The translations under genes and the position numbers were made by a program. DNA of 64,000 nt from NCBI RefSeq assembly GCF_017348835.2, contig NZ_CP071375.1; one strand, written 5' to 3'. Numbering within the stretch: the first letter of the stretch is position 1; each line of letters starts with the position of its first letter. The notes beneath the pieces were generated by a model. That model saw nothing but the letters and a program-made list of their open reading frames with translations. It was not told the origin of the DNA and searched no databases. Below, one piece after another: positions 43,824 to 52,293 of this stretch. The stretch comes from Escherichia coli (GTDB lineage: Bacteria; Pseudomonadota; Gammaproteobacteria; Enterobacterales; Enterobacteriaceae).

Positions 43824-43936
43824 GTAAGGTACTGGAAATGTTGACCACTTAATCGGGACTGGTGTTATTATTGCCCGCTTATGTCGTCTGCATTGCACAG
43901 AGGACCCTTCAATGAACAGAGAAGAAATGCACTGTG

Positions 43937-45292
43937 ATGTTGTCAAAATTTAAGCGTAATAAACATCAACAACACCTTGCCCAACTACCCAAGATTTCTC
44001 AATCAGTTGATGATGTCGATTTCTTTTACGCTCCCGCCGACTTCCGGGAGACGCTGCTGGAAAAAATAGCCAGCGCGAAGCAGCGCATTTGCATTGTCGC
44101 CCTGTATCTCGAACAGGATGACGGTGGCAAAGGCATTCTGAACGCGTTGTATGAAGCTAAAAGGCAGCGTCCGGAACTGGATGTGCGGGTGCTGGTCGAC
44201 TGGCATCGTGCACAACGTGGACGCATTGGCGCTGCGGCATCTAACACTAACGCTGACTGGTACTGCCGCATGGCGCAGGAAAATCCGGGCGTAGATGTTC
44301 CGGTTTATGGCGTTCCAATCAATACCCGTGAAGCCCTTGGTGTTCTGCACTTTAAAGGCTTTATCATCGACGATAGCGTACTTTATAGCGGTGCCAGCCT
44401 GAACGATGTTTACCTGCATCAGCACGATAAATATCGCTACGACCGTTATCATCTTATCCGTAACCGTAAGATGTCAGACATTATGTTTGAATGGGTTACA
44501 CAGAATATTATGAATGGCCGCGGCGTTAATCGTCTGGATGATGTTAATCGGCCAAAAAGCCCGGAAATCAAGAATGATATTCGTCTGTTCCGCCAGGAGC
44601 TGCGTGATGCCGCTTATCATTTCCAAGGCGATGCCGACAACGATCAGCTTTCCGTAACGCCGCTAGTGGGGCTGGGGAAATCGAGTCTGTTGAACAAGAC
44701 CATTTTCCATCTTATGCCTTGTGCCGAGCAGAAACTAACCATCTGTACGCCATACTTCAACCTGCCAGCAATCCTTGTGCGCAATATTATCCAGTTGCTG
44801 CGCGAAGGGAAAAAGGTCGAAATTATTGTTGGTGATAAAACCGCGAACGACTTCTACATTCCGGAAGATGAACCTTTCAAGATAATTGGCGCATTGCCTT
44901 ATCTCTATGAGATCAATCTGCGTCGTTTCCTGAGCCGTTTGCAGTATTACGTCAATACTGACCAGCTAGTGGTTCGGTTATGGAAAGATGACGACAACAC
45001 CTATCACCTAAAAGGGATGTGGGTTGATGATAAGTGGATGTTGATCACCGGTAATAACCTGAACCCGCGCGCCTGGCGTCTGGATCTGGAAAACGCCATT
45101 TTGATCCACGATCCACAACTGGAGCTTGCGCCGCAGCGAGAGAAAGAACTGGAGCTGATCCGCGAGCATACCACCATCGTTAAGCACTATCGCGATCTGC
45201 AAAGTATTGCCGATTATCCGGTGAAGGTTCGTAAACTCATCCGCCGTTTGCGCCGTATCCGCATCGACCGATTAATTAGCCGCATCCTGTAA
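43937..45292 (+). CDS. pssA: Phosphatidylserine synthase (PLD superfamily)
   Basis: MLSKFKRNKHQQHLAQLPK... with two HKD-type motifs; ATG at 43937 chosen over adjacent GTG. Confidence 0.95.
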   Translation: MLSKFKRNKHQQHLAQLPKISQSVDDVDFFYAPADFRETLLEKIASAKQRICIVALYLEQDDGGKGILNALYEAKRQRPELDVRVLVDWHRAQRGRIGAAASNTNADWYCRMAQENPGVDVPVYGVPINTREALGVLHFKGFIIDDSVLYSGASLNDVYLHQHDKYRYDRYHLIRNRKMSDIMFEWVTQNIMNGRGVNRLDDVNRPKSPEIKNDIRLFRQELRDAAYHFQGDADNDQLSVTPLVGLGKSSLLNKTIFHLMPCAEQKLTICTPYFNLPAILVRNIIQLLREGKKVEIIVGDKTANDFYIPEDEPFKIIGALPYLYEINLRRFLSRLQYYVNTDQLVVRLWKDDDNTYHLKGMWVDDKWMLITGNNLNPRAWRLDLENAILIHDPQLELAPQREKELELIREHTTIVKHYRDLQSIADYPVKVRKLIRRLRRIRIDRLISRIL

Positions 45293-45337: not shown

Positions 45338-45661
45338 TTGCGTATTCTTTTTGTCTGTTCGCTATTGTTACTTTCTGGATGCAGCCATATGGCTAACGAT
45401 AGCTGGAGCGGGCAGGATAAAGCTCAACACTTTATCGCCTCGGCGATGCTTTCCGCCGCCGGAAATGAATATTCACAGCATCAGGGGATGAGCCGGGATC
45501 GCAGTGCCATGTTTGGATTGATGTTCTCTGTCAGTTTGGGGGCGTCAAAAGAGCTTTGGGATAGCCGCCCCGAAGGGAGCGGCTGGAGCTGGAAGGATTT
45601 GGCCTGGGATGTCGCCGGTGCAAGCACCGGCTATACCGTCTGGCAACTGACCCGTCACTAA
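45338..45661 (+). CDS. yfiM: Lipoprotein YfiM
   Basis: [15 protein letters not shown] lipobox; TTG start 7 nt after GGAGG; overlaps kgtP 3' end by 4 nt. Confidence 0.8.
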
Positions 45662-46956
45662 AGACGCATCCCCTTCCCTTTGCGATGTAGCATCAAAGAA
45701 ACCAGAAACGCCACCACGGCCATCAAGGTCACATACCAGAAGAAGGCTGTTTCCATTCCTATTGATTTCAGCGACAACGCTACGTACTCCGCCGAACCAC
45801 CAAATATAGCATTAGCGACCGCATATGACAGACCAACGCCTAATGCGCGAACCTGTGCCGGGAACATCTCAGCCTTCAGTATTCCACTGATTGATGTATA
45901 AAAACTCACTATCAGCAGGGCACACATCACCAGACCAAAAGCGGCATAAGGCGAGGAAACGTTTTGCAATGCTGAGAGAATAGGAACGGTAAAAATGGCT
46001 GCCAGCGAACCGAAACATAACATTGAGGTACGGCGACCAATCTTATCCGACAGCGCGCCAATGAGTGGTTGAATAAGCATGAATACAAACAATGCGGCAG
46101 TCATAATGCCACTCGCCACGTTGGCATGCATTCCCGCAGTATTTACCAGATACTTCTGCATATAAGTGGTGAAGGTATAGAAACAAAGGGAGCCCGCAGC
46201 GGTAAAACCGAGAACCATGATGAATGCACGGCGATTGCGCCATAATCCTTTCAGAGATCCAGCTTCTTTTAAAGCGCGCGTTTCTTGTTGCGAAGTTTCA
46301 TCTAACTGACGACGTAACCACAACGCCACAACAGCTAACACAGCTCCTAACGCGAAAGGAATACGCCATCCCCACTCTCTGAGTGCAGCGTCTTCCATGG
46401 TGTGTTGTAAAACCACGACAACCAGTAGGGCTAGCAGTTGTCCGCCGATCAACGTCACATACTGAAATGATGCGTAAAAACCTTTGCGCCCTTCAACGGC
46501 AACTTCACTCATATAGGTGGCGCTGGTGCCATATTCTCCGCCAACGGATAATCCCTGAAATAAACGCGCGAGAAGCAATAATGCCGGAGCCCACGTACCG
46601 ATTGTTTCATAACCAGGCAAACAGGCGATTACCAGTGAGCCGAAACACATCATACACACCGATAGCAGCATCGATTTTTTGCGACCATGTTTATCGGCTA
46701 TGCGGCCAAATAGCCAACCGCCTATTGGGCGCATCAGGAATCCCGCAGCAAAAACACCTGCTGTTTGTAGTAGTTGAGTCGTCGTGTTCCCGGAAGGGAA
46801 GAAGATGTGGGCAAAGTAGAGTGAACAGAACGAGTAGACATAGAAATCGAACCACTCGACCAGATTACCTGAAGAGGCCCCCACAATCGCCCAAATGCGG
46901 CGACGAGTATCACTACTTGTCAGTTTGCTGTCTGCCGTTACAGTACTTTCAGCCAT
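45658..46956 (-). CDS. kgtP: Alpha-ketoglutarate:H+ symporter (MFS)
   Basis: [41 protein letters not shown]..., 432 aa; start trimmed. Confidence 0.95.
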
Positions 46957-47240
46957 GCCATTATGTCTCCTGCCGTAATCCGATGCTTTTGTCGGTCGCT
47001 TTTGTTTATTTCTTTTGGTAAAGAAAATGTTATACATTTGTTGCGTATCATTATGCAACCTTAACCATGAATTTAGTTAGCAGGAAAATGGTTATTGAGG
47101 AGCTTAAGGATAAATTTCTGGTAAGGAGGACACGTATGGAAGTAGGCAAGTTGGGGAAACCGTATCCGTTGCTGAATCTGGCATATGTGGGAGTATAAGA
47201 CGCGCAGCGTCGCATCAGGCATTTTTTTCTGCGCCAATGC

Positions 47241-47266
47241 AAAAAGGCCATCCTGACGGATGACCT
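47241..47266 (-). terminator. rrnG operon terminator
   Basis: Reverse-strand hairpin AGGUCAUCC-GUCA-GGAUGGCCU followed by UUUUU, downstream of 5S. Confidence 0.65.
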
Positions 47267-47279
47267 TTCGCTTAATTTG

Positions 47280-47399
47280 ATGCCTGGCAGTTCCCTACTC
47301 TCGCATGGGGAGACCCCACACTACCATCGGCGCTACGGCGTTTCACTTCTGAGTTCGGCATGGGGTCAGGTGGGACCACCGCGCTACTGCCGCCAGGCA
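47280..47399 (-). rRNA. rrfG: 5S ribosomal RNA
   Basis: 120 nt matching E. coli 5S (TGCCTGGCGGCAGTAGCGCGGTGGTCCCACC...) on reverse strand. Confidence 0.97.
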
Positions 47400-47493
47400 A
47401 ATTCTGTCGTATTAACCCGCTTACCGCCGGTTAATCTAATCTGTATCAGGCTGAAAATCTTCTCTCAATCCGCCAAAACACCTTCGGCGTTGT

Positions 47494-50398
<2,905 letters not shown>

Positions 50399-50752: not shown

Positions 50753-52293
<1,541 letters not shown>

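What the first reader, a model, noticed from the sequence alone, without database searches (positions are those of the whole stretch)
47122..47198. Candidate 20-codon ORF with consensus Shine-Dalgarno between kgtP and the rrnG terminator
On the + strand, TAAGGAGG (47122-47129) is followed after 6 nt by ATG GAA GTA GGC AAG TTG GGG AAA CCG TAT CCG TTG CTG AAT CTG GCA TAT GTG GGA GTA TAA (47136-47198), encoding MEVGKLGKPYPLLNLAYVGV. A perfect SD at ideal spacing is uncommon by chance in a 320-bp intergenic region, and it is too short for the six-frame track. It is divergent from kgtP and convergent with the 3' end of rrnG. I cannot tell from sequence alone whether it is already catalogued as an E. 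coli small protein, and no clear sigma70 promoter is visible upstream.
Basis: seen in the sequence. Interest (0 to 1): 0.4.

Follow-up and report, generated by a model that had tools for sequence, protein, structure and literature searches.

The report
Known E. coli small-protein gene yfiS
The 20-codon reading frame is real but already catalogued as the E. coli small protein YfiS; the only new point is that it looks like the left-over tail of an acetyltransferase gene (yjaB) that gained its own ribosome-binding site and start codon.

Summary
TAAGGAGG (47122-47129), a 6-nt spacer, ATG (47136) and 20 codons ending at TAA (47196-47198) lie between kgtP and the 5S gene of rrnG.

It is not new. MG1655 RefSeq annotates the identical peptide MEVGKLGKPYPLLNLAYVGV as yfiS (b4783). 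Two papers attribute it to the Weaver et al. 2019 initiation-profiling screen, one of them listing it as western-blot validated.

What I add:
- YfiS residues 2-19 match the last residues of the GNAT acetyltransferase YjaB (16/18). A 41-nt tract is 40/41 identical to K-12 yjaB and 41/41 to other yjaB alleles, in frame.
- A relic at the same position in Citrobacter amalonaticus has no Shine-Dalgarno sequence (SD) and no ATG. Salmonella has a different gene there.
- Within Escherichia the frame is unstable: three substitutions and a 4-nt spacer in about 23% of E. coli genomes, ATG changed to ATA in one strain, a frameshift in a divergent lineage, and stop loss in E. albertii.
- The ORF diverges faster than its non-coding flank.

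Most likely it is a translated gene relic, partly kept similar to yjaB by gene conversion, with no demonstrated function. Interest is low because the gene is already known.

The parts
47122..47129 (+). Shine-Dalgarno octamer TAAGGAGG, fully complementary to the last 8 nt of 16S rRNA
   Evidence: The same octamer at 50753-50760 is the complement of the 16S 3' end. Variants elsewhere: TGAGGAGA (MLI107), TATGGAGG (R32), TAAGGAGA (L010), TGAGATGA (E. albertii); absent in C. amalonaticus.
47130..47135 (+). 6-nt spacer ACACGT between SD and start codon
   Evidence: It is only 4 nt (AAGT) in the Eco-15-type allele, which matches 1250 of 5426 complete E. coli genomes.
47136..47198 (+). yfiS ORF: 20 codons plus TAA, encoding MEVGKLGKPYPLLNLAYVGV
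   Evidence: The peptide is identical to MG1655 yfiS b4783. There are two synonymous differences from K-12.
47151..47191 (+). Tract near-identical to the 3' end of yjaB (codons 6-19 of yfiS), in the same reading frame, with stop codons at the same offset
   Evidence: 40/41 identical to yjaB of strain XJ5.2 and of K-12. 41/41 identical to yjaB of LTC201 and WGS1363. At protein level 16/18 identity to YjaB 129-146, E = 2e-10.
47195..47221 (.). REP-type repeat abutting and overlapping the stop codon
   Evidence: The query 47190-47232 finds at least 40 places per E. coli genome, the reporting cap. It is missing in HS13-1, where the ORF ends GCG TAG as yjaB does. IS1397 and IS110 lie just downstream in some strains.
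47239..47271 (-). rrnG terminator hairpin followed by a U-run. The same palindrome is the only candidate terminator for yfiS on the + strand.
   Evidence: Fold gives -22.8 kcal/mol, z = -4.06. Use as the yfiS terminator is inference.
47282..47397 (-). 5S rRNA gene (rrfG), convergent with yfiS
   Evidence: Rfam RF00001, 90.4 bits; K-12 annotation.
45658..46956 (-). kgtP (alpha-ketoglutarate permease), divergent neighbour; 179 bp separate the two start codons
47017..47043 (.). Most conserved block of the spacer (GGTAAAGAAAATGTTATACATTTGTTG), probably kgtP promoter or operator. It carries -10-like hexamers on both strands.
   Evidence: Conserved in Escherichia, Citrobacter and Salmonella. The function is inferred. 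The promoter scan found nothing that passed its threshold.

Best explanation
This is yfiS, an already annotated 20-residue small-protein gene of E. coli.

How it works, and what is shown versus inferred:
- Inferred: an mRNA starts somewhere in the 179-bp kgtP-yfiS spacer. The promoter is not mapped.
- Shown in sequence: the 8-nt SD can pair with the whole 16S 3' end and sits 6 nt before AUG.
- Shown by others: initiation-complex ribosome profiling and a chromosomal SPA tag detected the product.
- Shown in sequence: translation ends at a TAA that lies in the first bases of a REP element.
- Inferred: transcription ends at, or runs through, the rrnG terminator palindrome.

Origin (about 0.85): the ORF is the remnant of the last ~19 codons of a yjaB-like GNAT acetyltransferase gene lying downstream of rrnG.
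- The remnant is older than Escherichia, because a version without SD or ATG sits at the same place in Citrobacter amalonaticus.
- The ATG and SD arose in the Escherichia lineage.
- Codons 6-19 have been re-homogenised with the intact yjaB gene by ectopic gene conversion, most recently in the allele carried by this window and by K-12.

Function (about 0.55-0.6): the peptide has no conserved cellular role. It is a translated relic, or proto-gene, expressed because it happens to have a very strong ribosome-binding site.
For: Identity:
- Same peptide, position and orientation as b4783; named YFIS_ECOLI.
- Listed as western-validated and attributed to Weaver et al. 2019.

Origin:
- The 99-nt query hits a second place in nearly every genome, the 3' end of yjaB, on the same strand with stop codons in register.
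- BLASTP gives 16/18 identity, E = 2e-10.
- The 41-nt tract is 41/41 identical to some yjaB alleles.
- Identity is mosaic. Codons 1-5 differ from yjaB at 6-8 of 15 nt in all alleles. Codons 6-18 differ at only 1 (window), 2 (K-12), 4 (MLI107) or 6 (Eco-15, HS13-1, R32) of 39 nt, synonymous sites included.
- The C. amalonaticus relic RVTGRAEVDDPGRPYPLLHLRYQGA matches YjaB 123-147 (72% identity, E = 6e-7). It lies between the same conserved spacer motif and the rrn terminator, with GCA where E. coli has ATG and no SD.
- Some GenBank pipelines named the 43-aa in-frame version 'acetyltransferase YjaB' or 'GNAT family'.

Weak constraint:
- Window versus Eco-15: kgtP 5' coding 97.3%, non-coding spacer 97.0%, yfiS ORF 87.3% identical.
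- The yjaB 3' end is at least 95% identical in 5402 of 5423 genomes. The yfiS query is only 80-90% identical in 1263 genomes.
- The Eco-15 allele (K5N, P9T, P11S, 4-nt spacer) matches 1250 of 5426 genomes.
- Other changes: start ATA in R32, a 9-nt deletion in TUM2330, a frameshift to 12 codons in the divergent lineage L010, and no stop plus a degenerate SD in E. albertii.
Against: - Within E. coli proper the 20-codon frame, the ATG and a GGAG-type SD are kept in most alleles seen.
- Among sampled alleles synonymous changes are about as frequent as non-synonymous ones. That is fewer non-synonymous changes than neutrality predicts. The count is small and confounded by gene conversion from a gene that is itself under selection.
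- A 2-nt insertion moved the spacer from 4 to 6 nt in the commonest alleles, which could reflect selection for translation.
- Homology to yjaB upstream of codon 2 is not statistically supported in E. coli.
- No expression data could be examined directly here.
- Only a handful of alleles were read base by base. Allele frequencies come from BLAST identity bands.
Confidence: 0.78

Rival explanations
1. YfiS is a functional trans-acting small protein maintained by selection in E. coli. One version: a free copy of the last beta-strand of YjaB that binds YjaB, another GNAT, or an unrelated partner.
For: - The product was detected as a tagged protein.
- It has a perfect SD.
- The frame is kept in most E. 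coli alleles read.
- Its sequence stays close to the YjaB tail.
- The spacer lengthened from 4 to 6 nt in the major alleles.
Against: - The ORF diverges faster than the adjacent non-coding DNA.
- About 23% of genomes carry K5N, P9T and P11S together.
- The start, frame or stop is lost in R32, L010 and E. albertii.
- The similarity to yjaB includes synonymous sites, so it points to gene conversion rather than selection on the peptide.
- There is no Pfam, transmembrane or other recognisable feature in the 20 residues.
Confidence: 0.17
2. The element acts in cis and the peptide is irrelevant. Options: divergent transcription or translation of yfiS modulates the kgtP promoter; it buffers antisense read-through from rrnG; or, on a long kgtP leader, the complement CCUCCUUA sequesters the kgtP SD.
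For: - yfiS and kgtP share a 179-bp spacer with -10-like hexamers on both strands of one conserved block.
- In a hypothetical 200-nt kgtP leader the minimum-energy fold pairs GUGUCCUCC with the kgtP SD region.
Against: - That fold is not better than shuffles (z = -0.50).
- The conserved promoter-like block lies about 80-105 nt on the kgtP side of the SD (47017-47043 versus 47122). It is also conserved in Salmonella, where no yfiS exists. A kgtP leader reaching 47129 is therefore unlikely.
- The SD is degenerate in E. albertii.
- No transcription start data were available.
Confidence: 0.04
3. It is a chance ORF that is not translated.
For: - It is very short.
- No promoter is recognisable.
- PGAP does not annotate it in most RefSeq genomes.
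Against: - The SD-ATG geometry is very unlikely by chance.
- Published initiation profiling and a western blot of the tagged protein are cited by two independent papers.
- It is curated in the MG1655 RefSeq record and named Protein YfiS (RepID YFIS_ECOLI) in UniRef.
Confidence: 0.01

Closest known systems
YfiS (b4783, YP_010051193.1, YFIS_ECOLI), an E. coli K-12 small protein from the Weaver et al. 2019 initiation-profiling screen
   Same: Identical 20-residue peptide, the same SD, and the same position and orientation between kgtP and rrfG.
   Different: Two synonymous nucleotide differences (GTA/GTG at codon 3, AAA/AAG at codon 8). The window is not from K-12: it is 97.2% identical to K-12-type strains over 421 nt.
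YjaB (b4012), a GNAT peptidyl-lysine N-acetyltransferase; PDB 2KCW
   Same: YfiS residues 2-19 match YjaB 129-146 at 16/18 positions. The DNA tract is 40-41/41 identical and in frame, with stops in register. Both genes are convergent with an rrn operon (rrnE for yjaB, rrnG for yfiS).
   Different: YfiS has only the C-terminal ~19 residues. It has no acetyl-CoA-binding core and no Pfam GNAT match. It has its own SD and ATG where YjaB has Ser128 (TCT). There is no yjaA equivalent between it and the 5S gene.
Other non-conserved small ORFs found by ribosome profiling in E. coli (Weaver 2019 set: YqgH, YhiY, PssL and others)
   Same: Found by the same screen, detected only as tagged proteins, function unknown. 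pssL is in this same window.
   Different: For yfiS a parent gene can be named. I found no published statement of that in the searchable library.
MicroProteins / interfering peptides derived from a domain of a larger protein (concept from plant and animal work; from my own knowledge)
   Same: A short ORF that duplicates one structural piece of a larger protein encoded in the same genome.
   Different: There is no evidence here of interaction or dominant-negative action, and the sequence is poorly conserved. This is an analogy only.

Membership tests
YfiS (annotated E. coli small protein) | Peptide sequence MEVGKLGKPYPLLNLAYVGV | tested here: met
   Translations of window 47136-47198 and of MG1655 2725925-2725987 are identical.
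YfiS (annotated E. coli small protein) | Locus between kgtP and rrfG, divergent from kgtP | tested here: met
   RefSeq feature table and alignment; 5S rRNA located by Rfam.
YfiS (annotated E. coli small protein) | Experimental evidence of translation (start-codon ribosome peak, tagged protein on a western blot) | not testable with these tools
   Literature only. RiboReport Table/Fig. 5 lists yfiS among the western-validated sORFs of Weaver et al. 2019. A supplement of PMC10746267 lists it as well. The original mBio paper and its tables were not held.
GNAT acetyltransferase (YjaB family) | Complete GNAT fold with the acetyl-CoA-binding motif A (Pfam Acetyltransf_1/7/10) | tested here: not met
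   YjaB matches Acetyltransf_10/7/1 over residues ~34-130. YfiS, the 43-aa in-frame extension and the Citrobacter relic give no Pfam match at E <= 10. YfiS is a fragment, not a member.
GNAT acetyltransferase (YjaB family) | Sequence homology to the YjaB C-terminus | tested here: met
   BLASTP 16/18, E = 2e-10; DNA 40-41/41.
Leader peptide / upstream ORF controlling a downstream gene | A co-directional structural gene or attenuator downstream of the short ORF | tested here: not met
   Downstream there are only a REP, the rrnG terminator and the convergent 5S gene.
Hydrophobic membrane small proteins / type I toxins | A hydrophobic stretch of about 18 or more residues able to span the membrane | tested here: not met
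   Read directly from the sequence: the longest uncharged stretch is PYPLLNLAYVGV (12 residues, two of them prolines).
Known non-coding RNA families (Rfam) | A covariance-model match in 46800-47500 other than rRNA | tested here: not met
   Only the 5S rRNA and a sub-threshold RNAI match on the terminator hairpin (19.7 bits against a gathering score of 47).

The most novel reading that the evidence does not exclude
YfiS is a domesticated copy of the last beta-strand of the lysine acetyltransferase YjaB, kept similar to its parent by gene conversion. It would act as a micro-protein that inserts into or competes with the GNAT fold of YjaB (or a related acetyltransferase) and so tunes protein acetylation. 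The locus would also be a dated example of a small-protein gene born from a pseudogene fragment.
Probability: 0.06. Interest if true: 0.55.

Novelty: already known. Interest (0 to 1): 0.15.

Why it matters
As a gene call it adds nothing: yfiS has been in the K-12 annotation since the 2019 ribosome-profiling work.

The modest value lies in its origin. The ORF can be traced to the tail of yjaB. An orthologous relic without translation signals exists in C. amalonaticus. Start, frame and stop come and go among Escherichia lineages. Together these make yfiS a concrete case of a translated small ORF created from a gene remnant.

This bears on a current question: how many of the ~150 E. coli small proteins are functional, and how many are translated by-products? 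It also warns that tagged-protein detection and a perfect SD do not imply a conserved function.

Tried and rejected
- **Homology to yjaB upstream of the ORF.** Local DNA alignment of 46957-47150 against the rest of yjaB scored 20, against 17.6 +/- 2.1 for shuffles; 80 of 500 shuffles reached it. This is not significant. MAFFT's apparent upstream matches are therefore not claimed. Only the Citrobacter relic extends homology back to YjaB residue 123.
- **Pfam** on YfiS, the 43-aa in-frame ORF and the Citrobacter relic: no hits.
- **Rfam** on 46800-47500: only 5S rRNA.
- **Promoter and terminator scan:** no sigma-70 match in the spacer. The only promoter-like hit (46917-46944) and both + strand terminator-like hits lie within kgtP or its leader.
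- **mRNA folding** of the yfiS transcript region (z = -1.41) and of a hypothetical long kgtP leader (z = -0.50): nothing beyond shuffles.
- **AlphaFold2 on YjaB without an alignment:** pLDDT 42, unusable except as a weak hint of two terminal strands. YfiS itself is too short for the tool.
- **Original Weaver et al. mBio paper and the EcoSal small-proteome review:** not held. The preprint text does not name yfiS and has no supplements held.
- **KgtP-anchored genome scan:** Salmonella was recovered through the protein route. E. fergusonii and Shigella were not examined.
- **Relic of the Salmonella DUF4385 gene in the window:** none found by tblastn at E <= 1e-3.

Full report
**1. Observation**

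The window reads TAAGGAGG at 47122-47129, then ACACGT, then ATG at 47136, followed by 20 sense codons and TAA at 47196-47198. The peptide is MEVGKLGKPYPLLNLAYVGV.

- kgtP ends its divergent reading frame with its start codon at 46954-46956 on the minus strand.
- The 5S rRNA gene of rrnG is at 47282-47397 on the minus strand.
- The 5S gene is preceded, in rrn direction, by a strong hairpin plus U-run at about 47239-47271.

The octamer occurs only twice in the 64-kb window. Shuffles give 0.93 per window on both strands. The second copy, at 50753-50760, is the complement of the 3' end of the 16S gene. The SD is therefore the longest possible match to the anti-SD.

Of the three AGGAGG-N4-9-ATG sites in the window, one opens a 2-codon frame, one is the start of a long, protein-sized ORF near 864 on the minus strand, and one is this ORF.

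**2. It is already catalogued**

- MG1655 RefSeq annotates yfiS (b4783, YP_010051193.1) at 2725925-2725987 (+), between kgtP and rrfG.
- Its translation is identical to the window ORF. The DNA differs at two synonymous sites.
- UniRef names the peptide YFIS_ECOLI.
- RiboReport (PMC8921622) lists yfiS among 31 western-blot-validated sORFs of Weaver et al. 2019, with a TIS read count of 33 and DeepRibo rank 61.
- Supplementary file 7 of PMC10746267 lists yfiS with the same coordinates and peptide under 'Weaver et al. 2019 sORFs'.
- The Weaver preprint describes the method: Onc112 and retapamulin start-codon peaks, then chromosomal SPA tags and anti-FLAG blots, with 36 of 38 tagged candidates detected.

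I could not read the published tables. PGAP does not call the ORF in ordinary RefSeq E. coli genomes, which is why a sequence-only reader could not know.

**3. What the ORF is made of**

A 99-nt query (SD plus ORF) finds two places in nearly every E. coli genome. The second is the 3' end of yjaB, the GNAT lysine acetyltransferase two genes downstream of rrnE. It lies on the same strand as the query, and the two stop codons are at the same offset.

- YjaB ends ...GRSEVDDLGKPYPLLNLAYVGA. YfiS residues 2-19 match YjaB 129-146 at 16 of 18 positions (E = 2e-10).
- At DNA level, 47151-47191 is 40/41 identical to K-12 yjaB and 41/41 identical to the yjaB alleles of LTC201 and WGS1363. Those alleles also end in Val as YfiS does.
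- Identity is mosaic. Codons 1-5 differ from yjaB at 6-8 of 15 nt in every allele. Codons 6-18 differ at 1 (window), 2 (K-12), 4 (MLI107) or 6 (Eco-15, HS13-1, R32) of 39 nt, synonymous positions included.
- Such a sharp-edged tract that includes silent sites is the signature of ectopic gene conversion, not of selection on a peptide.
- Alleles of more distant lineages (E. albertii, L010, Eco-15, R32) share TAT TCN YTG TTG where the window has the yjaB-like TAT CCG TTG CTG. The window/K-12 allele therefore looks like the most recently converted one. This last step is inference.
- Upstream of codon 2, similarity to yjaB is not significant in E. coli.
- YfiS lacks everything that defines a GNAT. 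Pfam domains of YjaB span residues ~34-130, and YfiS gives no match. From the known GNAT topology, and weakly from a low-confidence model (strands 122-130 and 136-144, pLDDT 42), YfiS corresponds to the end of beta-6, the turn and beta-7.
- Some automatic GenBank annotations of the 43-aa in-frame version were already named 'hypothetical acetyltransferase YjaB' or 'GNAT family'.
- I found no paper that links yfiS and yjaB.

**4. Age and stability**

KgtP-anchored loci show that kgtP abuts an rrn operon across Enterobacteriaceae; most draft contigs stop there.

*Outside Escherichia:*
- In Citrobacter amalonaticus the spacer holds RVTGRAEVDDPGRPYPLLHLRYQGA, which matches YjaB 123-147 (72% identity, E = 6e-7).
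- This relic is in the same orientation as yfiS and at about the same distance from the conserved TTAGCAGG motif.
- It has GCA where E. coli has ATG, and TAAGAGTGACGG where E. coli has TAAGGAGG.
- Other Citrobacter species have lost it and carry REPs instead.
- Salmonella enterica and S. bongori, and also Klebsiella, Enterobacter, Leclercia, Siccibacter and Phytobacter loci, have a 151-aa DUF4385 gene co-directional with kgtP. No YjaB relic was found in any of these loci, and the Salmonella loci were checked specifically.

*Within Escherichia:*

| Source | SD and spacer | Peptide / outcome |
|---|---|---|
| Window, K-12 | TAAGGAGG, 6 nt | 20 aa, MEVGKLGKPYPLLNLAYVGV |
| MLI107 | TGAGGAGA | P11S |
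| Eco-15 type | 4-nt spacer | K5N, P9T, P11S |
| HS13-1 | as Eco-15 | as Eco-15, but ends GCG TAG like yjaB; no REP |
| R32_14_1F | TATGGAGG | start codon ATA |
| TUM2330 | as window | 9-nt deletion, 17 aa, IS1397 downstream |
| L010 | TAAGGAGA | frameshift to 12 codons |
| E. albertii | GAGATGA | no stop for more than 56 codons |

L010 is deposited as E. coli, but its kgtP 5' DNA is only 88.7% identical to the window.

*Frequencies and divergence:*
- The Eco-15 allele matches 1250 of 5426 complete genomes, 945 of them at >=99% identity.
- Identity bands for the window allele are: >=99% in 615 genomes, 95-99% in 2747, 90-95% in 801, and 80-90% in 1263. In 391 genomes less than 80% of the query is covered.
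- Between the window and Eco-15, kgtP coding DNA is 97.3% identical, the non-coding spacer 97.0% and the ORF 87.3%.
- The parental yjaB tail is at least 95% identical in 5402 of 5423 genomes.

The ORF is therefore the fastest-changing piece of the locus.

**5. Surroundings**

- The stop codon sits in the first bases of a REP element; 47190-47232 has at least 40 copies per genome, which is the reporting cap.
- This spot attracts IS1397 and IS110 insertions.
- The best-conserved spacer block (47017-47043) is shared with Salmonella, which has no yfiS. It is therefore probably the kgtP promoter or operator. It carries -10-like hexamers on both strands, so a shared bidirectional promoter is possible but untested.
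- No Rfam family other than 5S rRNA matches.
- Folding shows nothing beyond shuffles for the yfiS mRNA or for a hypothetical long kgtP leader in which CCUCCUUA would pair with the kgtP SD.

**6. Interpretation**

Identity as yfiS is certain. Translation in K-12 rests on the published record.

The best-supported account of what it is: a fragment of a yjaB-like gene left downstream of rrnG before Escherichia and C. amalonaticus diverged. It gained an ATG and an SD in the Escherichia lineage and has been patched repeatedly from the intact yjaB. I put this at about 0.85.

Whether the peptide does anything is open.
- Against a conserved role: rapid divergence, three joint substitutions in a quarter of genomes, and independent loss of start, frame or stop in relatives.
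- For a possible young, lineage-specific role: persistence of the 20-codon frame and a GGAG-type SD in most E. coli alleles, and the 4-to-6-nt spacer change.

I put 'translated relic without selected function' at roughly 0.55-0.6, a trans-acting function at roughly 0.17 and a cis role at roughly 0.04.

**7. Verdict**

The gene is already known, so novelty is 'already known' and interest is low (0.15). The origin from yjaB, and the birth-and-decay pattern, are a small addition worth one line in a small-protein catalogue.

Noticed in passing
window 50753-50760 (+): The only other TAAGGAGG in the window is the complement of the 3' end of the 16S rRNA gene of rrnG (TAAGGAGGTGATCCAACCGCAGG...). The yfiS SD is therefore an exact 8-nt complement of the anti-SD encoded 3.6 kb away.
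   Followed up: yes
window 43912-43953 (+): A 13-codon ORF, MNREEMHCDVVKI, overlaps the start of pssA. It is identical to pssL (b4782) of MG1655, which is annotated with the b-number immediately preceding yfiS (b4783).
   Followed up: partly
window 47067-47198 (+): An in-frame upstream ATG with no SD gives a 43-aa ORF ending in YfiS. GenBank records call it 'hypothetical acetyltransferase YjaB' or 'GNAT family'. In O157:H7 records it is fused to 71-205-aa spurious ORFs that run antisense to kgtP.
   Followed up: yes
L093 and L094 (yjaB 3' end of E. coli LTC201 and WGS1363), positions 121-240: Some E. coli yjaB alleles end ...GCA TAT GTG GGG GTG TAG (YjaB A147V). They share GCA and the terminal Val with yfiS. 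This could be gene conversion in the reverse direction, from yfiS into yjaB.
   Followed up: partly
L090 942-1397, L092 405-860; also L020, L022, L024, L031, L035, L040, L041, L044, L045: In Salmonella, Klebsiella, Enterobacter and other genera a 151-aa DUF4385 gene lies between the rrn operon and kgtP, co-directional with kgtP. Escherichia and Citrobacter lack it.
   Followed up: partly
window 47017-47043 and 47070-47084: Two conserved spacer blocks. GGTAAAGAAAATGTTATACATTTGTTG is shared with Citrobacter and Salmonella. AATTTAGTTAGCAGG is shared with Citrobacter only. They are probably kgtP control elements; no regulator is assigned.
   Followed up: partly
L006 602-892 and L008 566-872 (E. 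coli HS13-1 and TUM2330): IS110-family and IS1397 insertions lie immediately downstream of yfiS in some strains, at the REP site, separating yfiS from the rrn terminator.
   Followed up: no
window 47122-47134 (- strand) versus 46960-46970 (- strand): On the kgtP-sense strand the yfiS SD reads CCUCCUUA, which is complementary to the kgtP SD region (CAGGAGAC). They pair in the minimum-energy fold of a hypothetical 200-nt leader, but the fold is no better than shuffles, and no transcription start that far upstream is known.
   Followed up: partly
window 45658-47058 (-): The kgtP frame stays open upstream to a TTG at 47058 (466 aa). CFT073-type records annotate a 463-aa KgtP (P0141) instead of the 432-aa protein. 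This is probably over-extension.
   Followed up: no
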